A stretch of DNA of 9,409 nucleotides, from the UHGV virus genome UHGV-0216968. One strand, given 5' to 3'. The notes below the pieces were generated by a model. It did no database searches. It worked only from the letters and a program-made list of their open reading frames with translations, and was not told where the DNA came from. This DNA is from a virus. Within the stretch, counting starts at the first letter, position 1. The number at the start of each line of letters is the position of its first letter. The translations under genes and the position numbers were made by a program. Shown in pieces: positions 2,123 to 9,409 of the stretch.

Positions 2123-2156
2123 GTGGGTACCGTTTTAAAACGGTGGGTACTGTTTT
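2123..2156. promoter_or_regulatory. operator-like site upstream of alpA
   Basis: Direct repeat GTGGGTACCGTTTT (2123-2136) and GTGGGTACTGTTTT (2143-2156) enclosing a perfect 16-bp palindrome ACCGTTTTAAAACGGT (2129-2144), about 65 bp upstream of the alpA start. Confidence 0.4.
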
Positions 2157-2221: not shown

Positions 2222-2428
2222 GTGGAAACAATCAGAAAAATACTTACCCGTCAGGAAGTAAAAAATATTCTGCGCATCAAGGCAGACAGTTCGCTACAGG
2301 ACATGATCAACGCCGGAAAATTCCCGAAAGGCTTCAAAATCGGTCTGCGTCGTGTTGGCTGGTATGAAGATGAAGTGCTGGCCTGGCTGAAAGAGCGCGA
2401 GGAAGAAGCGCGCGGAACGGCTGCGTAA
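2222..2428 (+). CDS. alpA: AlpA-family (MerR-like HTH) regulator/excisionase-like protein, 68 aa
   Basis: GTG start at 2222 with GAGG at 2208-2211. Translation METIRKILTRQEVKNILRIKADSSLQDMINAGKFPKGFKIGLRRVGWYEDEVLAWL has the characteristic AlpA pattern (R-VGW-E-EV-AWL). Position directly after int is typical for Gram-negative PICI/P4-like islands. Confidence 0.85.
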   Translation: METIRKILTRQEVKNILRIKADSSLQDMINAGKFPKGFKIGLRRVGWYEDEVLAWLKEREEEARGTAA

Positions 2429-2578
2429 TGGTGTGAGGCGTAACGCGATGAACATAACAAAAAGCGCCCCGTTGCCGGAGCGCCCTTGCGAACAATTAAC
2501 CTGCTGCGAAAAAAATGGATCAGTGCAGGGGAATTATATCAACCGTGTGGCGAAGCGCCACAATTGCCGGATAACGGG

Positions 2579-2607
2579 CAAAACAAAGGCGACCGGGGGC
2601 GGTCGCC
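2579..2607 (-). terminator. rho-independent terminator on the minus strand
   Basis: Perfect 8-bp inverted repeat GGCGACCG-ggg-CGGTCGCC (2588-2607). On the minus strand it is followed by UUUGUUUUG (plus-strand 2579-2587). Lies about 68 bp downstream of the minus-strand small ORF. Confidence 0.45.
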
Positions 2608-2674
2608 AATGGATATACACTAAACTTGAACGCATCACCAACAATGCCACATTTGCGGCTGGTGGGCAATGTGA

Positions 2675-2854
2675 TCAGTCAGATTTGGTTCGTTCCAAGG
2701 TTTGCAACGAGAGCTTTTTCCTGTGCTCTTTAAGGAATTTCTCAAGAGCAAACGAACAAGGTGCGAATCTTTCTGATTCATGTTCATGCGCTATATTTTT
2801 GCGTCGTCTCTTACGAGTTGGCGATGGTGTTTTGGTTGATTCTGTGTCGCTCAT
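2675..2854 (-). CDS. hypothetical small basic protein, 59 aa (MSDTESTKTPSPTRKRRRKNIAHEHESERFAPCSFALEKFLKEHRKKLSLQTLERTKSD)
   Basis: Hand-translated minus-strand ORF, below the size cut-off of the supplied ORF track. ATG at 2854-2852 with AGGA 7 nt upstream, TGA at 2677-2675. Sits 57 bp downstream of the RHH gene on the same strand and before a minus-strand terminator. No family recognised. Confidence 0.3.
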   Translation of the reverse strand: MSDTESTKTPSPTRKRRRKNIAHEHESERFAPCSFALEKFLKEHRKKLSLQTLERTKSD

Positions 2855-2911
2855 GGTGCTGTCCTGTAAAGCAATGCGCCTGCGTTCCTCAAACTATGGC
2901 GCTGATAGTGG

Positions 2912-3217
2912 CTATTCCTGCTCTTTGACCTTGCGTCGCTGGAGTTCTTCACGCGCGACGGTGACGAGTTGCCCGATCTCCTCGGCGGCTTTGACTCCGA
3001 TTTTTTCCACCTGCGCTAGGGCATCGAGCGAAGAAACCAGGAGGTTTTCTCCGCTTCCTTCTGCCTGGCGGCGGGCGATTTCACCGCGCATGGCGGTTAC
3101 TATGAATCCGGCGTTGCTTTCACCGTCCAGTTTTACGGATTCCATGCCTTCAATAACATCATGCGGGATCCGAGCTGTCAGTGATTGTGATTTTGCGTTT
3201 TTTGAACCTGTAGCCAT
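2912..3217 (-). CDS. ribbon-helix-helix-type DNA-binding protein, candidate island regulator, 101 aa
   Basis: ATG at 3217-3215 with GAGAGG about 7 nt upstream. The ORF-track start at 3232 is a TTG that contains this Shine-Dalgarno. N-terminal SLTARIPHDVIEGMESVKL fits the strand-helix pattern of Arc/CopG/MetJ RHH domains. Transcribed divergently from the downstream operon. Confidence 0.6.
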   Translation of the reverse strand: MATGSKNAKSQSLTARIPHDVIEGMESVKLDGESNAGFIVTAMRGEIARRQAEGSGENLLVSSLDALAQVEKIGVKAAEEIGQLVTVAREELQRRKVKEQE

Positions 3218-3238
3218 CTGTAATCCTCTCAATGAAAG

Positions 3239-3315
3239 TGTAAGACAATATACACATAAAAAGTCTTACATAAAAGCATTGACATGTAAGCCACCTATAA
3301 ATAAAGTTACTTACA
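3239..3315. promoter_or_regulatory. divergent promoter/operator region
   Basis: Rightward promoter TTGACA (3279-3284), 17 bp, TAAAGT (3302-3307). Leftward -10 candidate TATATT on the minus strand (3247-3252). Four copies of TGTAAG/CTTACA (3239-3244, 3265-3270, 3285-3290, 3310-3315) including the inverted repeat TGTAAGAC (3239-3246) / GTCTTACA (3263-3270). Hairpin CACCTTG-ttaatg-CAAGGTG at 3314-3333 in the rightward leader. Confidence 0.45.
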
Positions 3316-3413
3316 CCTTGTTAATGCAAGGTGCAGAAACGACGAAACCCCGCACTGTAGGAGCAGTAACGGGGCTTCTAACCACCAACGATAGCAAGAT
3401 TATCGAGGTAGCT

Positions 3414-3620
3414 ATGTTAAATCATACCACACACCCGCAAGGGCGGGACTCGCACAACCTGAATAAATACATCTGGCGTTTTATCGCCCTGAGCACGGCA
3501 CAACCGCGCGTGATTCACATCGTGGCCACCAGCGAACAGGAAGCCCGTCAACAATCACCGGCTGGCTGCGTGATGGTATTCGCCGCCCGTATTCGTCAGG
3601 AGGTGCACCATGTGCAATAA
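3414..3620 (+). CDS. hypothetical small protein, 68 aa
   Basis: ATG at 3414 with GAGG at 3405-3408. It is the C-terminal part of the implausible 395-aa track ORF. First gene after the rightward promoter and its stop overlaps the next start. Product unknown. Confidence 0.4.
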   Translation: MLNHTTHPQGRDSHNLNKYIWRFIALSTAQPRVIHIVATSEQEARQQSPAGCVMVFAARIRQEVHHVQ

Positions 3621-4071: not shown

Positions 4072-4371
4072 ATGAAACAGAAAATTTCTGGCTTTACTGC
4101 CAGCGGCCTCCCTCGGCCTGAAATCTGCCCCGGCGATATTTACCGGGATAAATACGGCAGCACGGTAATGATTAAAGGTGTTGCCGGACGGTGCGTTACT
4201 TACCGCCGTGAAGGTTATGAATATGACTGCGTGATGCCTGTTTATCAGTTCCGGCGTGATTTTTCTCTGGTACAGAACGCAACACGCGGTAAGCCCACCA
4301 GTTGGGAAAAAGCACGGGAAAATATTAAGAAAATAAAAAGCATGCTCAGCGCATCCAGAGGTAAAAAATGA
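4072..4371 (+). CDS. hypothetical protein, 99 aa
   Basis: ATG at 4072. Its stop overlaps the start of the replication gene (ATGA at 4368-4371). Basic C-terminus. No recognisable family. Confidence 0.5.
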   Translation: MKQKISGFTASGLPRPEICPGDIYRDKYGSTVMIKGVAGRCVTYRREGYEYDCVMPVYQFRRDFSLVQNATRGKPTSWEKARENIKKIKSMLSASRGKK

Positions 4372-5774
4372 AACTGGCACCGAACGTAAAACTGTTACCG
4401 AAAGATAAACACACTGAGGCGGTTATTTTTGCGGGTGATAATGCTCACTCCTTTGCAGAACATTACATGATTGCACAGGCCAAAAAAGCAGGCGATCCCA
4501 TCCCTCCGGTTTACCTGGGCCGTTATCAGTTAAGCGAACTGGACAATTTACAGATTGTTGATGAAGGACGATACAGAGCAAAGGTCATACGCGCCGGAAA
4601 CCTGGACGATATGCAGATGCTGACCATTGCCACCAAACTGGCGATCGCAGGTGTCCGGGAAGCGCGGTTACTTTCAGAGAATTTCGAACTACTGGAAGAC
4701 TGGAGCGAGCAACTACCGCGCCTTAAAGAAACCTGGGAACGTGGGGAAAGCCTGGTCATGAATGGTGGAAAGCGAAAAATCACACTTCCCATCTCATGGG
4801 GTTCTGAGGGATTCGACGCGCAGCAAAGCTACGTAATTAAGGGGCTTATTCCGGCTGAATCATTATGCAGCACCTACGGGGCCAGCGGCTCTTATAAATC
4901 GTTCCTGGCTATTTCCTGGTCGTGCCATGTTGCCACAGGTATGGCATGGGGAGGCCGCAGGGTCAGTAAGGGCGCGGTTATCTATATAGCTGGTGAAGGC
5001 AGCATGGGCGTAAAACGCCGCGTTAAGGCGTGGGAGATAACCCACGACAAGGTGGTTACAGATTTGTGCATCATTAACGCGCCTGTTTTCCCTGCATCGC
5101 CTGACTATGTGGAGCAGGTTATCAGAACTGCCGGACTTGTTAAGAGCAGAACGGGCGAAAATGTGCGGCTGATTGTGATAGACACGCTGGCCCGTTGCTT
5201 TGGTGGGAATGATGAAAATGATTCCCGTGATATGGGCGCATTTATCCAGGGGTGTGACGCGATAAAGCAGGCCACAGGGGCCACGGTGCTGGTGGTTCAC
5301 CATTCCGGCAAGGATGAAACAAAGGGGGCGCGTGGTTCCAGCGCATTCCGTGCCGCACTGGATGCAGAGTACCGAATCAGCCGGGAAAATTCAGACGTTA
5401 CAGCACTGGTGGCGGCGTGTACGAAGATGAAGGACGCAGAGGAGCCAAAAGAAAGCGCATACGACCTTAAAAGCGTGGAGGTGTTTACCGATACAGATGG
5501 CGAAGAGATTGTGTCCATGGTGGTGATTGACGTTCCCCGCGCCCCTGCTGAACTGGAACGCATCGAGGAGGCCGGGAACAAGACGGAAAATCACACGGCT
5601 TTATGGGGTTGTATCCGGTCACGTATACAGCATGGTGATAAATGCACGATCCCGCTGCTACGTGATGACATGAAAAAGCTGGGATATGACACAAAACACC
5701 TTAAACGATGGTTAGCCAAACTGGAAAAAGACGGCGTGATTTGCGTCGATGGGGATGATGTTCACCCACTGTAA
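4368..5774 (+). CDS. replication protein: RecA-superfamily RepA/DnaB-like ATPase, 468 aa
   Basis: ATG at 4368 with AGAGG at 4357-4361. Contains a P-loop-like YGASGSYKS, Walker B-like RLIVIDTL and a VLVVHHSGKD motif characteristic of RepA-type replicative helicases. The C-terminal ~60 aa look like a small DNA-binding domain. Iterons follow immediately downstream. Confidence 0.85.
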   Translation: MKLAPNVKLLPKDKHTEAVIFAGDNAHSFAEHYMIAQAKKAGDPIPPVYLGRYQLSELDNLQIVDEGRYRAKVIRAGNLDDMQMLTIATKLAIAGVREARLLSENFELLEDWSEQLPRLKETWERGESLVMNGGKRKITLPISWGSEGFDAQQSYVIKGLIPAESLCSTYGASGSYKSFLAISWSCHVATGMAWGGRRVSKGAVIYIAGEGSMGVKRRVKAWEITHDKVVTDLCIINAPVFPASPDYVEQVIRTAGLVKSRTGENVRLIVIDTLARCFGGNDENDSRDMGAFIQGCDAIKQATGATVLVVHHSGKDETKGARGSSAFRAALDAEYRISRENSDVTALVAACTKMKDAEEPKESAYDLKSVEVFTDTDGEEIVSMVVIDVPRAPAELERIEEAGNKTENHTALWGCIRSRIQHGDKCTIPLLRDDMKKLGYDTKHLKRWLAKLEKDGVICVDGDDVHPL

Positions 5775-5976: not shown

Positions 5977-6228
5977 ATGACCAGAAAAACCAGAGATAAG
6001 ACAGCACCAAAATATCGCGCATTAGACATGACAGAGCACGCCTTAAAGGTGGCAATCAGAACGATAGACCGCCACGCCGGAGAAGGATACGCGAAAGCAC
6101 ATCCCGAACTGATAAGCGCATTCATGACCACGACGGCGGCAAATTTTGCCACGCTGACAGAGCGGGAGATTGCCGAAGCGGAACAGGTAACAACAATCAA
6201 CGTTAAAACCGGAGAGGTGGAATCATGA
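5977..6228 (+). CDS. hypothetical protein, 83 aa
   Basis: ATG at 5977 preferred over the track start at 5845, because 5845-5976 is occupied by the iterons. Stop overlaps the SSB start (ATGA at 6225-6228). Confidence 0.4.
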   Translation: MTRKTRDKTAPKYRALDMTEHALKVAIRTIDRHAGEGYAKAHPELISAFMTTTAANFATLTEREIAEAEQVTTINVKTGEVES

Positions 6229-6647
6229 CAGCACAGATAGCGGCTTACGGGCGGCTGGTGGCTGACCCGCAGTTAAAGACCACCAGCAAAGGGACACAAA
6301 TGGCGATGGCGAGTATGGCGGTTCCCCTGCCGTGCAGCCAGGCAGATGACGGAACGGCGACGATGTGGTTATCTGTCCTGGCGTTTGGCAGACAGGCCGA
6401 CGCACTGGCAAAACACCACAAAGGCGAACTCCTGAGCGTGGCGGGTAACATGCAGGTGAGCCAGTGGACAGGCCAGAACGGCGAAACGCGGCAGGGCTGG
6501 CAGGTTATCGCAGACAGTGTAATCAGTGCCAGAACGGCGCGACCGGGCGGCAAAAAAGGTCAACAGGGCCAGGCCACTGACGCACTGAACAGGGCAAAAC
6601 AACAGTCAGGGAATGATGATCCGTACAGGGATGACATACCGTTTTAA
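6225..6647 (+). CDS. ssb: single-stranded DNA-binding protein, 140 aa
   Basis: GGAGAGGTGG (6211-6220) precedes the ATG at 6225. OB-fold-like N-terminal region (AYGRLVADPQLKTTSKG..., WLSVLAFGRQADAL...). Gly/Gln-rich linker and a C-terminal acidic tail DDPYRDDIPF, ending in the DDIPF-type motif that is the hallmark of bacterial and phage SSBs. Confidence 0.8.
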   Translation: MTAQIAAYGRLVADPQLKTTSKGTQMAMASMAVPLPCSQADDGTATMWLSVLAFGRQADALAKHHKGELLSVAGNMQVSQWTGQNGETRQGWQVIADSVISARTARPGGKKGQQGQATDALNRAKQQSGNDDPYRDDIPF

Positions 6648-6655
6648 GCAACGAG

Positions 6656-6687
6656 TGACAGAAGCCGGAGCAATCCGGCTTCTGTCA
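6656..6687 (+). other. very stable hairpin, possible terminator or attenuator between replication and capsid modules
   Basis: Perfect 14-bp stem TGACAGAAGCCGGA (6656-6669) / TCCGGCTTCTGTCA (6674-6687) with loop GCAA, 9 nt after the SSB stop. No U-tract follows. A second imperfect hairpin at 6717-6734 is preceded by A8 (6709-6716), so it is terminator-like on the minus strand. Confidence 0.4.
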
Positions 6688-6828
6688 GTTGAGTCCGTCA
6701 CACCACGCAAAAAAAAGGCCGGAATGTTCCGACCCCTTCATCACCAAAGAGAATAATTTATGTCTTTGAACTTGTAACGCTGCACAGAATGACACGTAAC
6801 GCCGGATAAATAAACGAAGATTGAAACT

Positions 6829-6858
6829 TTGCACACTATTGCATAGCAATGCATAAAG
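6829..6858. promoter_or_regulatory. phased TTGCA(C/T) repeats upstream of the capsid gene, candidate late promoter/activator site
   Basis: TTGCAC (6829-6834), TTGCAT (6839-6844) and ATGCAT (6849-6854) at exact 10-bp spacing, including the inverted repeat TGCAT-agca-ATGCA (6840-6853). Located about 65 bp upstream of the capsid gene start in an AT-rich intergenic region. Confidence 0.3.
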
Positions 6859-6919
6859 ATGCCGAACAAGGCTGATGATAAGATTAACGCGACACTTTTA
6901 CTAAGTATTAAGAGGTTGT

Positions 6920-7960
6920 ATGAGTGATTTATATTCGCCAGCTATGTTAATACAGGTTGTTAATGCCGAAGATATTCAATGGCAGATTAATTCTTTATTT
7001 ATAAACCTTTTTTTTAAGCGAGTCGTTACATTTGAGACGCGGGATATTGCGCTTGATATTATTGACGATCCAGACATCCCGATGGCTGCATTTTGTTCCC
7101 CTATGGTTGGTAGCAAAGTCTCACGCGATGAAGGCTACGAATCGAAAGTAATTCGTCCTGGCTACATGAAGCCAAAAAGTAGTATCGATCCAAATAAAAT
7201 AGCCGTTCGTCAACCAGGCGTATCACCGGAACAATTCAATGCATATTCATCACGCAGTTTCAAAATAAAGCGAGCGTTAGTAAGACAAGCGCAGGCAATT
7301 CGTGCGCGTATTGAGTGGCTTGCTGTTCAGGCGGTTACAACGGGGAAAAATATCATTGAAGGCGATGGAATTGAACGTTATGAACTGGACTGGAATATAA
7401 AACCACAAAATATTATCACGCAGTCCGGCGGTACGGAGTGGAGCGGTAGAGATTTATCAACATTTGATCCAAACGATGACATCGAAGAGTACGCAGAAAT
7501 CAGCGAAGGTACTACAAATATCATCGTAATGGGCCGCAACGTATGGAAAAAATACCGCGCCTTTAAAGCAGTAAAAGATTGCCTTGATACTCGACGGGGA
7601 TCTAATTCCGTTCTTGAAACGGCCCTGAAAAATCTTGGGGATTCTGTAAGCTTCAAGGGTTACGTTGGCGATGTTGCTATTGTGGTATATAGCGGACGTT
7701 ATACCGACGAGGACGGAACTGAAAGATATTTCCTTGATCCTGATTTGATGGTGCTTGGCAACACATCATTACAGGGCATCGTTGCCTACGGTGGCATTCA
7801 GGATCCTGAGTTAATCAGAATGGGGCTTACTAAAGCCGAACTTGCGCCGAAAAATTACATCGTACCAGGTGATCCGGCTATTGAGTACGTACAAACGCAC
7901 TCTGCACCACAGCCAATACCGGCCCGCATCAATCGTTTTGTTACCGTTCGCATTGGTTAA
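6920..7960 (+). CDS. major capsid protein, lambda gpE family, 346 aa
   Basis: AGAGG at 6911-6915 precedes the ATG. Blocks shared with lambda gpE as I recall it: NIITQSGGTEWSGRD, FDPNDDIEEYA, NIIVMG, FKAVKDCLDTRRGSNSVLETA, GDVAIVVYSG, MVLGNT, GDPA. Length is close to lambda E (341 aa). Confidence 0.92.
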   Translation: MSDLYSPAMLIQVVNAEDIQWQINSLFINLFFKRVVTFETRDIALDIIDDPDIPMAAFCSPMVGSKVSRDEGYESKVIRPGYMKPKSSIDPNKIAVRQPGVSPEQFNAYSSRSFKIKRALVRQAQAIRARIEWLAVQAVTTGKNIIEGDGIERYELDWNIKPQNIITQSGGTEWSGRDLSTFDPNDDIEEYAEISEGTTNIIVMGRNVWKKYRAFKAVKDCLDTRRGSNSVLETALKNLGDSVSFKGYVGDVAIVVYSGRYTDEDGTERYFLDPDLMVLGNTSLQGIVAYGGIQDPELIRMGLTKAELAPKNYIVPGDPAIEYVQTHSAPQPIPARINRFVTVRIG

Positions 7961-7969
7961 GGGGGAGCA

Positions 7970-8311
7970 ATGGCTACTCATTACACTGAACTCATGGCTG
8001 GCACTGAAGCACTGGTTACTACGTTGGGGATATTTTCAGCTAATAAAGGGGTAATTCCTGCATTTACGCCACTGATGCAAGAAGATGCAACTGGTGCACT
8101 GGTGGTATGGGATGGAACGAGCGCAGGCAAAGCTGTTTATGTTTCCGCTGTACAAATCGATACAGCGACAAAAACGCAGGCTCAGGTTTATAAAACCGGC
8201 GTCTTAAATGTTGATGCTCTGAACTGGCCTGAATCTGTAACACAACTATCAGCAAAAGTTGCTGCGTTTGTTGGCTCAGGTATTTCTGTTCAGCCGCTGG
8301 CACGTGTGTGA
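7970..8311 (+). CDS. head decoration protein, lambda gpD family, 113 aa
   Basis: Strong Shine-Dalgarno AAGGGGGAG before the ATG at 7970. Matches lambda gpD blocks: THY, TPLM, VVWDGT, YKTG...WPE, AAF.G.GIS. Size is close to lambda D (110 aa). Confidence 0.85.
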   Translation: MATHYTELMAGTEALVTTLGIFSANKGVIPAFTPLMQEDATGALVVWDGTSAGKAVYVSAVQIDTATKTQAQVYKTGVLNVDALNWPESVTQLSAKVAAFVGSGISVQPLARV

Positions 8312-8320
8312 GGTACGAGA

Positions 8321-8665
8321 ATGATTGAAAGAGATAGTCAGCTACGAGAGCTATTAGATATCGATGATAAAATGCGCTTAAGCGAGCGTCTTGTCGATAT
8401 GGATCAGGTAGTGGAGCTTACAACCCTTAGCCGTCGCACATTGCTAAACCTTGAGGCTCGCGGAGAGTTCCCCGAACGCGTACAGGTTACGAAAGGCCGC
8501 AAGGCATGGTATTTAAGCGAAGTTGTTGCGTGGATTAACAACATTCCGCGCGCATCAAATTATTGCCTTGTTCCCACCCCCGAAAAACCTGATGCGGCGT
8601 TATGCCTCAAGATTGAACGCGCCAGGCGTAATGCCCTGAAAGGGCGCAATAAGTTGATTGGTTGA
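8321..8665 (+). CDS. second AlpA/excisionase-like HTH protein, 114 aa
   Basis: GAGGT at 8311-8315 precedes the ATG. Central region VVELTTLSRRTLLNLEARGEFPERVQVTKGRKAWYLSEVVAWI is a MerR/AlpA-type HTH. Stop lies 26 bp before the cosQ-like sequence. Confidence 0.7.
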   Translation: MIERDSQLRELLDIDDKMRLSERLVDMDQVVELTTLSRRTLLNLEARGEFPERVQVTKGRKAWYLSEVVAWINNIPRASNYCLVPTPEKPDAALCLKIERARRNALKGRNKLIG

Positions 8666-8691
8666 TGAAATTAGGGCCCGTTCTGGCTGGC

Positions 8692-8756
8692 GGGTCCTTT
8701 CCGGCGATCCGGCAGGCTACGGGGCGGCGACCTCGCGGGTTTTCGCTATTTATGAG
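8692..8756 (+). other. lambda-type cohesive end site (cosQ-like, cosN, proximal cosB)
   Basis: GGGCGGCGACCT at 8722-8733 equals the lambda 12-nt cohesive end. Upstream CGGGTCCTTTCCGGCGATCCGGCAGGCTACG matches the lambda right end with 3 substitutions. Downstream CGCGGGTTTTCGCTATTTATGA matches lambda left-end nt 13-34. Comparison is from memory of the lambda sequence. Confidence 0.8.
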
Positions 8757-8866
8757 CCTTTTTCGGGTGCTGGTGGTGGTTTTGTTGTTCGCTCTATCTC
8801 TATGAATAAAAAGGAAAAGATAAAGCCAATACACCAACCTGAAACATTACTTAAGTGGGGATATTG

Positions 8867-9409
8867 ATGAAATCGCACCTGATGAACAAAAAAAACATGG
8901 CGCAAAGCTGCCGTGTAAGTGCGACAGCGTTCGACAAGTGGGGAGTGACTCCCGTTGAACGTAAAGGCCGCGAGGCGTTTTATGATGTTGCCAGCGTAAT
9001 AGACAATCGGGTTAGCAATGCAATTAACCAGATTACAGACGACAAAGGCGAGATTGATGATGATGAACTCCTACGAGTCAGGATCAGATTGCTGACAGCA
9101 CAGGCAGAGGCGCAGGAGCTTAAAAACGAGCGCGAACGCGGCGACGTTATTGATACAGCGTTTTGTATATACGTGCTTTCAAAATTGGCGAGTCAGATTT
9201 CTTCAATCATGGACAGCCTGCCGCTTGCCATGACAAGGAAGTTTCCCGACATGAAGCCGTCTATGCTGGATGGACTGAAAAAAGAAGTTATCAGAGCCTG
9301 TAACGCATGCGCAAAACTTGACGAAAACATACCGCTGATGCTGTCCGATTATCTGATGGAAACTGCCGGAAACGTACCGGATAAGTTGCAGCCGAATAAA
9401 GATAAGTAA
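8867..9409 (+). CDS. terminase small subunit, lambda Nu1 family, 180 aa
   Basis: ATG at 8867; alternative starts are GTG 8855 and ATG 8882. The N-terminus (MNKKNMAQSCRVSATAFDKWG...FYDVASVIDNR) parallels the Nu1 winged HTH (MEVNKKQLADIFGASIRTIQNWQ...LYDSAAVIKWY). The C-terminal half is strongly Nu1-like (RLLTAQAEAQELKNERERGDVIDTAFCIYVLSKLASQISSIMDSLPLAMTRKFPDMK). Stop falls at the window end. Confidence 0.88.
   Translation: MKSHLMNKKNMAQSCRVSATAFDKWGVTPVERKGREAFYDVASVIDNRVSNAINQITDDKGEIDDDELLRVRIRLLTAQAEAQELKNERERGDVIDTAFCIYVLSKLASQISSIMDSLPLAMTRKFPDMKPSMLDGLKKEVIRACNACAKLDENIPLMLSDYLMETAGNVPDKLQPNKDK

What the first reader, a model, noticed from the sequence alone, without database searches (positions are those of the whole stretch)
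6829..6858. Helically phased TTGCA(C/T) repeats in front of the capsid gene
Three TGCA(C/T) motifs at exact 10-bp spacing, with an embedded inverted repeat, lie in the AT-rich region upstream of the E-like gene and downstream of the post-SSB hairpin. The layout suggests an activator-dependent late promoter, possibly a target of one of the two AlpA-like proteins.
Basis: seen in the sequence. Interest (0 to 1): 0.4.

Follow-up and report, generated by a model that had tools for sequence, protein, structure and literature searches.

The report
Phased operator array at satellite capsid promoter
Three to four TTGCA(C/T) boxes, one per DNA turn, sit at a fixed distance upstream of a weak promoter for the capsid genes of an E. 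coli phage satellite, and most likely form the landing pad for a second AlpA-like regulator encoded in the same gene block.

Summary
TTGCAC (6829), TTGCAT (6839) and ATGCAT (6849) lie exactly 10 bp apart, followed by a degenerate fourth unit, ATGCCG (6859). About 0.03 such arrays are expected by chance.

The window is an E. coli PICI-type phage satellite. In 13 diverged relatives from several genera, the hexamers stay 81-88% identical. The 4-bp spacers are 49% identical and the flanks 31-37%.

In 15 lineages the units start about 51, 41 and 31 bp (±1-2) before a conserved extended -10 (TGnTAnnAT; here 6876-6884). No -35 hexamer is present. This is the layout of an activator-dependent promoter.

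The array travels with the capsid, decoration and AlpA2 genes, not with the integrase/AlpA1 module. AlpA1 is only 25-62% identical among islands that share the array, whereas AlpA2 is 76-100%. Satellites without AlpA2 lack the array. AlpA2 is an excisionase/BldC-type winged helix, a family that binds direct repeats head to tail.

The best reading is an AlpA2-bound late promoter. Neither binding nor activation has been shown. The embedded inverted repeat is a by-product of the palindromic TGCA core. Lambda CII, CytR, sigma-54 and Q-type readings fail on geometry.

The parts
6656..6687 (+). Post-ssb hairpin: a 14-bp perfect stem with a 4-nt loop and no U-tract after it
   Evidence: minimum free energy -38.4 kcal/mol for 6645-6745, z = -5.85. 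Because there is no T-run it is at best a weak terminator on the + strand, so some read-through from the replication operon is possible (inference).
6709..6734 (-). Hairpin GGCCGGAA/TTCCGACC with an A8 run on the + strand. On the - strand it reads as a stem followed by U8, which looks like a terminator.
   Evidence: On the + strand the stem has a C-A mismatch and no T-run.
6829..6834 (+). Array unit 1, TTGCAC. It starts 50 bp before the -10 hexamer.
6839..6844 (+). Array unit 2, TTGCAT. It starts 40 bp before the -10 hexamer. A TTGCAY-like unit fills this position (±2 bp) in 14 of the 16 lineages compared.
6849..6854 (+). Array unit 3, ATGCAT. It starts 30 bp before the -10 hexamer, with an inferred centre near -39.5. 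A TTGCAY-like unit fills this position (±1-2 bp) in 15 of the 16 lineages.
6859..6864 (+). Array unit 4, ATGCCG. It is degenerate and starts 20 bp before the -10 hexamer. The 84%-identity E. coli group has TCGCAT or TTGCAT here. The Kluyvera-type group has no unit here.
6876..6884 (+). Extended -10 element, TG-A-TAAGAT. TGnTAnnAT is conserved in all lineages. Where the TG is lost the hexamer improves (TAATAGAAT versus TGATAGCAT).
   Evidence: At 16-18 bp spacing there is no -35-like hexamer (AAAGAT, AAGATG, AGATGC). The tool's sigma-70 scan, which requires a -35, finds nothing here.
6890..6892 (+). Predicted transcription start. This is inferred from the -10 and has not been mapped.
   Evidence: Inference from the standard 6-8 nt distance from a -10 hexamer to +1.
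6910..6915 (+). Shine-Dalgarno sequence AAGAGG of the capsid gene
6920..7960 (+). Lambda-E-like major capsid protein gene, the first gene of the block
   Evidence: PF03864, E = 2e-41; phrog_29.
7970..8311 (+). Lambda-D-like head decoration gene
   Evidence: phrog_49; PF02924.
8321..8665 (+). AlpA2, a 114-aa AlpA-family winged-helix protein with extra N- and C-terminal helices. It is the proposed binder of the array.
   Evidence: PF05930, 32.4 bits against a cut-off of 21; PDB 8C3T, E = 9e-17; model; fold matches to excisionases and BldC. Co-occurrence with the array.
8690..8767 (+). cos-like segment, 92-97% identical to lambdoid phages
8867..9409 (+). Nu1/TerS-like (Rpp-type) gene, the last gene of the block inside the window
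   Evidence: (PF07471) and the annotation of the identical gene in L001.
2222..2428 (+). AlpA1, the canonical 68-aa PICI AlpA. It was considered as the binder and judged unlikely.
   Evidence: PF05930. Its own upstream region carries GTGGGTAC twice (2123 and 2143) and no TTGCAY. It is exchanged between islands that share the array.

Best explanation
The array 6829-6864 is a head-to-tail operator of three strong units and one weak unit of consensus (A)TTGCAY, spaced one DNA turn apart. It lies directly upstream of a weak, -35-less, extended -10 promoter (TG 6876-6877, TAAGAT 6879-6884). That promoter drives the satellite's late block: capsid, decoration, alpA2, cos and the Nu1-like rpp gene.

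The most likely binder is AlpA2 (8321-8665), which the block itself encodes. Several monomers would sit side by side on one face of the helix, as Xis, RdfS and BldC do. The promoter-proximal monomer would be centred near -40 and would recruit or stabilise RNA polymerase at a promoter that is weak on its own.

Because alpA2 lies inside the operon, the circuit would be a positive-feedback late switch. It would be primed by read-through from the AlpA1-activated early/replication operon through the U-less hairpin at 6656-6687.

Shown: the array, its conservation, its fixed phase and distance to the conserved -10, its linkage to alpA2, and the fold class of AlpA2.

Inferred: the transcription start, binding by AlpA2, activation rather than repression, and the priming route.
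For: 1. The array is non-random: 0.03 matches are expected by chance.

2. It is a phylogenetic footprint. In 13 diverged lineages (E. coli groups, Kluyvera, Kosakonia, Superficieibacter, Cedecea and metagenomes), mean pairwise identity is 0.81-0.88 in the three hexamers, 0.49 in the spacers and 0.31-0.37 in the flanks.

3. TTGCAY-like units start about 41 and 31 bp before the -10 hexamer, within 1-2 bp, in 14 and 15 of the 16 lineages compared; most also have one at about 51. All 16 keep TGnTAnnAT 34-52 nt before the ATG.

4. Array length changes only by whole 10-bp units. L131 has one unit fewer and L126 has four full units.

5. There is no -35, and the -10 is never consensus (TAAGAT, TAGCAT, TACCAT, TAACAT). 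When the TG is lost the hexamer improves.

6. 132 of 133 sufficiently long loci whose capsid protein is at least 73% identical carry AlpA2 after the decoration gene. The single exception has an IS element inserted there.

7. EcCICFT073-type islands (capsid 55-56% identical) have neither AlpA2 nor the array. They carry a near-consensus TTGCAC-N16-TATAAT promoter instead.

8. Islands sharing the array have AlpA1 proteins only 25-62% identical and sit at four different integration sites, while AlpA2 is 76-100% identical.

9. L297 lacks the Nu1-like gene but keeps both the array and AlpA2.

10. In the divergent AlpA2 clade (44-49% identical: Serratia L008 and L456), the layout is kept but the unit sequence changes. 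Five and four phased units respectively (at about -60 to -20, and -60 to -30) precede an extended -10, and the units read TTAGAC, TTAGTG, TTGTAC, TTGTGC or TTGGGT.

11. AlpA2 belongs to PF05930. Its closest solved structures are the GIsul2 excisionase 8C3T, RdfS, DNA-bound BldC and Pukovnik Xis. BldC and lambda Xis bind direct repeats head to tail with one DNA turn per monomer (PMC11963761).

12. The PICI AlpA of EcCICFT073 has been shown by reporter fusions to be an activator (PMC6092414).
Against: - No binding, transcription-start or expression data exist. The -10 and therefore all promoter-relative positions are inferred.
- An extended -10 can work without an activator, so the same geometry could serve a repressor. 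In the window's own group the fourth unit overlaps the -35 region.
- Co-inheritance of the array and alpA2 could simply reflect physical linkage within one 2-kb module.
- Co-variation between AlpA2 clade and unit sequence rests on only about four independent lineages. L172 (AlpA2 47-49% identical) still has TTGCAC and TTATAC units. Scandinavium and Buttiauxella keep only two phased TTATAC units.
- A regulator encoded inside the operon it activates needs a separate priming route, and that route is hypothetical.
- The core TTGC-N6-TTGC is also the lambda CII consensus, and TTGCA is the CytR half-site core.
Confidence: 0.5

Rival explanations
1. The binder is the same (AlpA2 or another element-encoded protein) but the sign is opposite. 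The extended -10 promoter is constitutively active, and the array is an auto-repressor operator that caps capsid and Rpp expression.
For: Extended -10 promoters need no -35 (established knowledge). In the window's group and the 84% group, a fourth unit reaches 20-21 bp before the -10 hexamer, where sigma region 4 would sit. RdfS, a structural neighbour, represses its own promoter (PMC11963761).
Against: - In the Kluyvera-type lineages the array ends upstream of the -35 region, with the last unit 31 bp before the hexamer. That position suits activation better than occlusion.
- The -10 is kept sub-optimal in every lineage.
- The AlpA2-less sister islands have a consensus promoter instead.
- Negative autoregulation would cancel the rise in gene dosage when the island replicates, which is the opposite of what a packaging module needs.
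Confidence: 0.15
2. The array is read by a helper-phage protein. The obvious candidate is lambdoid CII, whose site is TTGC-N6-TTGC. The satellite's late block would then switch on when the helper expresses its early genes.
For: Units 1 and 2 read TTGC-ACACTA-TTGC, an exact CII consensus, and relatives have two or three overlapping copies. CII sites flank the -35 of promoters that lack a good -35 (PMC4651098; PMC2629481). The cos segment shows that the helper is lambdoid.
Against: - The geometry does not fit. In lambda PRE the TTGC tetrads start 27 and 17 bp before the -10 hexamer AAGTAT. Here the conserved units start 51, 41 and 31 bp before it, and no -10-like hexamer lies 17 bp after the last strong unit.
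- Positions 5 and 6 of the hexamer (A, then Y) are as conserved as TTGC. CII does not require them.
- Distal or alternative units are TTATAC or TTGTAC, which break the tetrad.
- The array is absent from AlpA2-less islands of the same family, which carry the same Nu1-like packaging gene and, as published for EcCICFT073, use lambdoid helpers.
- No similar array was found in phage records by BLAST of the window.
Confidence: 0.08
3. The canonical master regulator AlpA1 (2222-2428) binds the array, so the capsid block is simply one more AlpA1-activated operon.
For: AlpA of EcCICFT073 activates PICI genes and its own promoter (PMC6092414). AlpA1 has the same fold family.
Against: - Islands with identical or near-identical arrays carry AlpA1 proteins that are only 25-62% identical.
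- The AlpA1 upstream region in the window has GTGGGTAC twice and no TTGCAY.
- L001, with a different AlpA1, has GACACAA and GAACAAC-type repeats there instead.
Confidence: 0.08
4. A host factor binds the array. CytR is the candidate, since its half-site is GTTGCATT with core TTGCA, and it accepts direct repeats on one face of the helix.
For: The core is the same and same-face spacing is allowed (PMC3454398). Some relatives have an exact GTTGCATT as the promoter-proximal unit.
Against: - CytR acts with flanking CRP sites. No CRP-like site better than chance flanks the array: only matches with 3 mismatches, 27 found against 32 expected.
- A CytR dimer needs two half-sites, not three or four in strict phase.
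- The unit sequence changes with the AlpA2 clade in Serratia and L456, although CytR-binding sites are reported as well conserved between orthologous genes across Enterobacterales.
- The array is restricted to AlpA2-bearing islands.
Confidence: 0.04
5. The array has no transcriptional role. It could be origin iterons, a packaging or partition site, or a neutral tandem repeat.
For: TTGCAY repeats with a 10-bp period are common in unrelated viral contigs, so such repeats can arise in many contexts.
Against: - The hexamers are conserved while the spacers drift, which is not what a young slippage repeat looks like.
- Position and phase are fixed relative to the -10 and the ATG.
- In Serratia the GGTGGGACA iterons, the presumed replication origin, are a separate element about 200 bp upstream of the array.
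- cos is elsewhere, at 8690-8767.
Confidence: 0.05

Closest known systems
Lambda Xis, BldC and RdfS type winged-helix proteins on phased direct repeats (Xis X1-X1.5-X2 filament; BldC on smeA-ssfA)
   Same: All use small MerR-like or excisionase winged-helix proteins and head-to-tail sites with one monomer per DNA turn. AlpA2's wHTH core superposes on BldC-DNA (6AMA), RdfS (8DGL) and Pukovnik Xis (4J2N). BldC and RdfS also regulate promoters.
   Different: Binding of AlpA2 to this array has not been shown. AlpA2 has an extra N-terminal helix (residues 2-20) and an extra C-terminal helix (92-107). Here the units are sharply defined hexamers, whereas Xis, BldC and RdfS rely largely on indirect readout of AT-rich DNA.
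AlpA of the E. coli satellite EcCICFT073 (master activator of Gram-negative PICIs)
   Same: It belongs to the same Pfam family (PF05930), the same type of element and the same host. It has been shown to activate PICI promoters, including its own (PMC6092414).
   Different: That protein corresponds to AlpA1, which sits next to int. AlpA2 is a distinct subfamily: 25% identical to the window's AlpA1, 114-127 aa, and located in the late block. EcCICFT073-type islands have no AlpA2 and no array. One paper states that typical E. coli PICIs encode only one AlpA (PMC11773190).
P2 Cox boxes at the P4 late promoter PLL, and P4 Vis (recalled from my own knowledge, not checked here)
   Same: A multifunctional excisionase-type winged-helix protein binds several direct repeats at roughly helical spacing and switches on a satellite's late promoter.
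   Different: Cox is supplied by the helper phage, and its boxes are 9-bp TTAAAGNCA-type. Here the candidate protein is encoded by the satellite itself, inside the regulated operon.
Lambda CII-dependent promoters (PRE, PI, PaQ)
   Same: They share the TTGC-N6-TTGC direct repeat, a promoter without a usable -35, and a lambdoid context.
   Different: CII tetrads start 27 and 17 bp before the -10 hexamer and straddle the -35. Here the units start 51, 41 and 31 bp before it. Here a full hexamer is conserved and there are three or four units.
GIsul2 excisionase (PDB 8C3T)
   Same: It is the closest solved relative of AlpA2: hmmsearch E = 9e-17, 44% identity and 1.0 A rmsd over 52 residues.
   Different: It is an excisionase of an integrative element, and no role at a capsid promoter is known. 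No paper on it was found in the library.

Membership tests
Activator-dependent sigma-70 promoter (class II-like, extended -10) | A -10 hexamer with the key T, A and final T, preceded by TGn | tested here: met
   TG-A-TAAGAT at 6876-6884. TGnTAnnAT is conserved in 16 lineages.
Activator-dependent sigma-70 promoter (class II-like, extended -10) | No functional -35 hexamer at 16-18 bp spacing | tested here: met
   The hexamers at that spacing are AAAGAT, AAGATG and AGATGC. The sigma-70 scan finds no site there.
Activator-dependent sigma-70 promoter (class II-like, extended -10) | An activator site centred near -41.5, with further sites at integral helical turns upstream | tested here: inconclusive
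   The unit centres fall near -39.5, -49.5 and -59.5 if +1 is about 6891. The transcription start is inferred, not mapped.
Activator-dependent sigma-70 promoter (class II-like, extended -10) | Transcription depends on the activator | not testable with these tools
   This needs reporter fusions or RNA mapping.
Xis/BldC/AlpA-type winged-helix operator array | Two or more sites in direct (head-to-tail) orientation at about one helical turn | tested here: met
   There are three or four TTGCAY units at exactly 10 bp. The orientation is set by the conserved flanks (TT before and Y after the TGCA core) in all relatives.
Xis/BldC/AlpA-type winged-helix operator array | A cognate small wHTH protein of that fold is encoded with the site | tested here: met
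   AlpA2 matches PF05930. Its fold matches 8C3T, 8DGL, 6AMA and 4J2N. It co-occurs with the array in 132 of 133 loci.
Xis/BldC/AlpA-type winged-helix operator array | Demonstrated cooperative binding of the protein to the repeats | not testable with these tools
   This needs EMSA, footprinting or ChIP.
Lambda CII-dependent promoter | A TTGC-N6-TTGC direct repeat | tested here: met
   TTGCACACTATTGC at 6829-6842.
Lambda CII-dependent promoter | The repeats straddle the -35 region, with tetrads starting about 27 and 17 bp before the -10 hexamer | tested here: not met
   Lambda PRE measures 27 and 17 bp. Here the conserved units start 51, 41 and 31 bp before the hexamer.
CytR/CRP operator cassette | CytR half-sites (GTTGCATT, core TTGCA) flanked by CRP sites | tested here: not met
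   The core is present, but no CRP-like site above chance flanks it. The motif definition comes from PMC3454398.
Sigma-54 promoter | TGGCAC-N5-TTGCW, with GG and GC exactly 10 bp apart in the -24/-12 register | tested here: not met
   The array has no match with up to 2 mismatches. The GC-to-GC distance is 10 bp rather than 11, and there is no GG.
Q-dependent late promoter (lambdoid PR'-type) | A Q-binding element between -35 and -10 of a strong constitutive promoter, followed by a pause site and a terminator | tested here: not met
   The 21Q site is TGAGCA twice, 8 bp apart, between -35 and -10. Here the repeats are upstream, the promoter is weak, and the 35-nt leader contains no hairpin or terminator.
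Phage-inducible chromosomal island of Gram-negative bacteria (the element as a whole) | An int - alpA - primase/replication - late module order in about 10 kb, with a helper-type cos and an Rpp/TerS-like gene, integrated at a specific site | tested here: met
   Copies of the same island lie next to tRNA-Pro in E. coli genomes. Induction by a helper phage was not tested.

The most novel reading that the evidence does not exclude
The array may be a helper-sensing switch rather than, or in addition to, an AlpA2 site. Its overlapping TTGC-N6-TTGC repeats would be bound by the lambdoid helper's CII protein. The satellite would then wire its capsid and packaging-redirection genes directly to the helper's early lysis-lysogeny regulator, and AlpA2 would lock the state in by positive feedback.
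Probability: 0.07. Interest if true: 0.7.

Novelty: new member of a known kind. Interest (0 to 1): 0.42.

Why it matters
How Gram-negative phage satellites (PICIs) time the expression of their late, helper-interfering genes is not described in the papers I could find. Those genes encode the capsid homologue, the decoration protein and the Rpp packaging redirector. Published work centres on a single master activator, AlpA, next to int.

The present analysis defines a large lineage of these islands that has a separate late promoter with a conserved, helically phased operator and a dedicated second AlpA-family protein. The array-bearing region is found in about 365 of 5,426 complete E. coli genomes (30 of the window's type and 335 of the 84% type). 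The lineage also occurs in Kluyvera, Kosakonia, Cedecea, Serratia and other genera.

This gives a concrete and cheap experimental handle: a 90-bp fragment and one 114-aa protein. With it one could test a two-tier regulatory cascade in satellites. It would also supply a compact, orthogonal activator-operator pair for PICI-based delivery vectors.

The contrast with EcCICFT073-type islands shows that sister satellites solved the same regulatory problem in two different ways. Those islands have a consensus promoter followed by a leader hairpin and T-run, and no AlpA2.

Tried and rejected
- **Sigma-54 promoter.** The TTGCAC...TTGCAT pair resembles the -24/-12 elements, but the spacing is one base short and there is no GG.
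- **Second site in the decoration gene.** There is a second exact TTGCAT-N4-TTGCAT on the minus strand at 8075-8090. It encodes the conserved LMQEDAT peptide and is not kept in the Kluyvera-type group, so it is best read as coincidence.
- **Pseudomonas aeruginosa 'AlpA' antiterminator.** It is an unrelated, Q-like protein with a single GGGACG site between -35 and -10. Only the name is shared.
- **21Q-type Q-binding element.** The sequence (TGAGCA), the spacing (8 bp) and the position are all different.
- **CytR.** The core is shared, but there are no CRP sites.
- **Lambda CII.** The consensus is shared, but the geometry is wrong.
- **Rpp/Nu1-like protein as binder.** L297 lacks that gene yet keeps the array.
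- **General link between AlpA-like genes and TTGCAY arrays in viral contigs.** The pattern scan hit its 120-locus limit. Of those 120 loci, only the five that carry this AlpA2 block have an AlpA2 gene within 2.5 kb of the array.
- **Widening the AlpA2 sample.**
  - The third protein search found only 2 proteins.
  - Two further viral-contig scans returned only the close E. coli groups.
  - The genome-contig scan gave only 4 loci.
- **L141 and L142.** Their AlpA2-like protein is 36-40% identical. They have a different operator type (TCACCACTG in direct and inverted copies), so they say nothing about the array.
- **Rfam.** The window contains no known RNA family except the tRNA.

Full report
**What the window is.** The 9.4-kb window is a phage satellite of the Gram-negative PICI type, integrated next to a tRNA-Pro(GGG) gene at 195-271. 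Its genes run in this order:
- a tyrosine integrase, 481-1722;
- a 68-aa AlpA-family protein, AlpA1, 2222-2428;
- small ORFs and a DUF4222 protein;
- an AAA_25 replicative helicase, 4368-5774;
- SSB, 6225-6647;
- a lambda-E-like major capsid protein, 6920-7960, and a lambda-D-like decoration protein, 7970-8311;
- a second AlpA-family protein of 114 aa, AlpA2, 8321-8665;
- a Nu1/TerS-like gene, 8867-9409.

Window 8690-8767 is 92-97% identical to lambdoid phages and is most likely the satellite's cos site. The same right-hand half occurs at 96% identity in E. coli Z1323CEC0007, where the integrase, AlpA1 and primase are different and the chromosomal site is different.

**Checking the observation.** The sequence reads cTTTGCACACTATTGCATAGCAATGCATAAAGATGCCGAAC. 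TGCAC, TGCAT and TGCAT start at 6830, 6840 and 6850. As hexamers the units are TTGCAC, TTGCAT and ATGCAT, followed by an in-phase degenerate ATGCCG at 6859.
- The three-unit pattern occurs once in the window. With up to one mismatch, 0.03 matches are expected by chance.
- The hairpin after ssb is real and very stable.
- The embedded inverted repeat (TGCAT-AGCA-ATGCA) exists, but it is a consequence of the self-complementary TGCA core. Relatives do not keep it.

**Comparative evidence.** Using the capsid protein as a probe I collected about 170 related loci from genomes, viral contigs and metagenomes.
- A plain MAFFT alignment with Kluyvera, Superficieibacter, Cedecea and Kosakonia (capsid 77-80% identical) already showed an intergenic region diverged beyond recognition. 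The exceptions were a run of 10-bp-spaced TTGCAY boxes and a short block nearer the start codon.
- That second block is TGnTAnnAT, an extended -10. It reads TGATAAGAT here and TGATAGCAT, TGATACCAT, TGTTAACAT, TGGTAAAAT or TGCTAGCAT elsewhere. Where the TG is lost (TAATAGAAT) the hexamer improves to 5 of 6 matches.
- Anchoring 16 lineages on this hexamer places TTGCAY-like units at -41 and -31 from the hexamer start, within 1-2 bp, in 14 and 15 of them respectively. Most also have a unit at -51.
- The window's own group occupies -50, -40, -30 and a weak -20.
- Unit number changes only in whole 10-bp steps. L131 has one unit fewer and L126 has four perfect units.
- Across 13 lineages, mean pairwise identity is 0.87, 0.88 and 0.81 in the three hexamers, 0.49 in the spacers and 0.31-0.37 in the flanks.
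- No -35-like hexamer is present.
- If the hexamer occupies -12 to -7, the unit centres fall near -40, -50 and -60. That is the geometry of a promoter that depends on an upstream-bound activator.
- Many relatives also carry a clear terminator (a hairpin followed by a T-run) between the replication genes and this region. This argues that the capsid block has its own promoter.

**Who binds?** Five lines of evidence bear on this.

1. *Co-occurrence.* Every sufficiently long locus with a capsid protein at least 73% identical has an AlpA2 gene after the decoration gene (132 of 133). The exception carries an IS element at that spot. EcCICFT073-type islands (capsid 55-56% identical) have no AlpA2 and no array. 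They have a near-consensus promoter, TTGCAC-N16-TATAAT, followed by a hairpin and a T-run in the leader.

2. *Modularity.* Complete islands in E. coli that share the array sit at four different sites: tRNA-Pro, abgR-smrA, cspD-clpS, and inside prophage portal or capsid genes. Their AlpA1 proteins are only 25-62% identical, whereas AlpA2 is 76-100% identical. The window's AlpA1 promoter region contains GTGGGTAC twice and no TTGCAY. One island (L297) lacks the Nu1-like gene yet keeps both the array and AlpA2, which argues against the Rpp protein as binder.

3. *Co-variation.*
   - In the divergent AlpA2 clade of Serratia and L456 (44-49% identical), the layout is kept. Five and four phased units respectively (at about -60 to -20, and -60 to -30) lie before an extended -10.
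   - There the units read TTAGAC, TTAGTG, TTGTAC, TTGTGC or TTGGGT.
   - Scandinavium and Buttiauxella (56-57% identical) have TTATAC twice.
   - The sample is small and L172 is a partial counter-example.

4. *Protein class.*
   - AlpA2 matches PF05930.
   - Its closest solved relative is the GIsul2 excisionase 8C3T.
   - The predicted wHTH core (mean pLDDT 77.5 for the whole model) also superposes on RdfS, DNA-bound BldC and a mycobacteriophage Xis.
   - For BldC and lambda Xis, head-to-tail filaments with one monomer per DNA turn on direct repeats are documented (PMC11963761).
   - AlpA2 adds an N-terminal and a C-terminal helix that AlpA1 lacks. In RdfS an N-terminal helix mediates filament contacts, but whether it does so here is speculation.

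5. *Precedent.* The AlpA of EcCICFT073 is an experimentally shown activator (PMC6092414).

**Most likely mechanism.**
- Helper induction turns on AlpA1 and the early/replication operon. This step is published for related islands.
- Some transcription passes the U-less hairpin at 6656-6687 and makes a little AlpA2 (inferred).
- AlpA2 then assembles on the three or four phased boxes and activates the weak extended -10 promoter (inferred).
- The result would be a self-reinforcing burst of capsid homologue, decoration protein, AlpA2 and Rpp at the time the island replicates.

I put this reading at about 0.5. That the array is a protein-binding operator of the capsid-block promoter I consider much more likely, at about 0.85.

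**Rivals.**
- *Auto-repressor.* A repressor reading of the same site cannot be excluded from sequence alone.
- *Lambda CII.* This is the most interesting alternative, because TTGC-N6-TTGC is its exact consensus and the helper is lambdoid.
  - In lambda PRE the tetrads start 27 and 17 bp before the -10 hexamer. Here they start 51, 41 and 31 bp before it.
  - Here the fifth and sixth positions are as conserved as the tetrad.
  - TTATAC and TTGTAC units break the tetrad.
- *CytR.* It shares the TTGCA core, but no CRP sites flank the array.
- *Sigma-54 and Q-type architectures.* Both fail on spacing and position.
- *Origin iterons.* In the Serratia relative these are a separate element.

**Comparison with what is known, and novelty.** The kind is known: small excisionase/MerR-like winged-helix proteins on helically phased direct repeats that control a promoter. 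Examples are BldC, RdfS, Xis and, from memory, P2 Cox at the P4 late promoter.

What I did not find described is this particular pair, or the idea that a large PICI lineage has a dedicated late regulator. I looked in the PICI papers available. One of them states that typical E. coli PICIs encode only one AlpA. I therefore file the finding as a new member of a known kind, of moderate interest. It is testable with a 90-bp fragment and one small protein.

Noticed in passing
window 8690-8767: A 66-78-bp stretch is 92-97% identical to many lambdoid E. coli phages (for example 2H10, phiSTEC1575-Stx2k and the PhiR series). It lies between alpA2 and the Nu1-like gene and is probably the satellite's cos site copied from its helpers.
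   Followed up: partly
L006 3690-3795 (EcCICFT073-type islands; also L007, L145-L167): Sister islands without AlpA2 carry a conserved near-consensus promoter, TTGCAC-N16-TATAAT, that contains the inverted repeat TTGCA-N5-TGCAA. A perfect leader hairpin (AACTGGATG..CATCCAGTT) and a T-run follow it, ahead of a 68-aa ORF and the capsid gene. A strong promoter followed by a leader terminator hints at antitermination control, perhaps by the helper's Q protein.
   Followed up: partly
window 2123-2150; L001 3485-3545 and 3760-3790: Upstream of AlpA1 the window has GTGGGTAC twice, 20 bp apart, flanking the palindrome CCGTTTTAAAACGG. The island with a different AlpA1 (L001) instead has about six GAACAAC-like repeats with a 10-11-bp period, plus GACACAA twice. 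Each AlpA1 type seems to have its own phased repeat set.
   Followed up: no
window 6029-9389 versus L001; L293-L297: The late block is a mobile module. The same capsid-decoration-alpA2 unit is combined with at least four different integrase/AlpA1/primase modules and integration sites. Two of these islands are embedded inside prophage portal or capsid genes (L296 and L297).
   Followed up: yes
L297 10512-12228: In one helper-embedded island the Nu1-like gene is replaced by HEPN and DUF262 genes on the opposite strand. This may be a defence cassette.
   Followed up: no
window 6709-6734, minus strand: A hairpin followed by U8 on the minus strand looks like a terminator for leftward transcription, yet no leftward gene or promoter was recognised to its right.
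   Followed up: partly
window 8075-8090, minus strand: A second exact TTGCAT-N4-TTGCAT lies inside the decoration gene. It encodes the conserved peptide LMQEDAT and is not kept in more distant relatives, so it is probably coincidental.
   Followed up: yes
L173-L292 (IMG/VR contigs), e.g. L189, L208, L220, L269: TTGCAY arrays with a 10-bp period are frequent in unrelated viral contigs with GC from 0.26 to 0.73. Several end 18-30 bp before a TATAAT-like -10. No AlpA2-like gene lies near them. No control motif was scanned, so whether TTGCAY is over-represented is unknown.
   Followed up: partly
window 6772-6786 and 6821-6835: A 15-nt imperfect direct repeat (TTGTAACGCTGCACA and TTGAAACTTTGCACA, 49 bp apart) places another CTGCAC upstream of the array, one base out of phase. 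It was seen only in the window's own group.
   Followed up: no
window 2433-3620: Only the last 90 residues or so of this 395-aa mechanical ORF match a phage 'transcriptional repressor' family (phrog_6196). Parts of the upstream region match L001 around its minus-strand YlcI/YnfO gene. The real gene structure there differs from the ORF list.
   Followed up: no
L089 about 4380-4900: The only array-bearing locus without AlpA2 carries an IS3-family insertion at the alpA2 position.
   Followed up: yes
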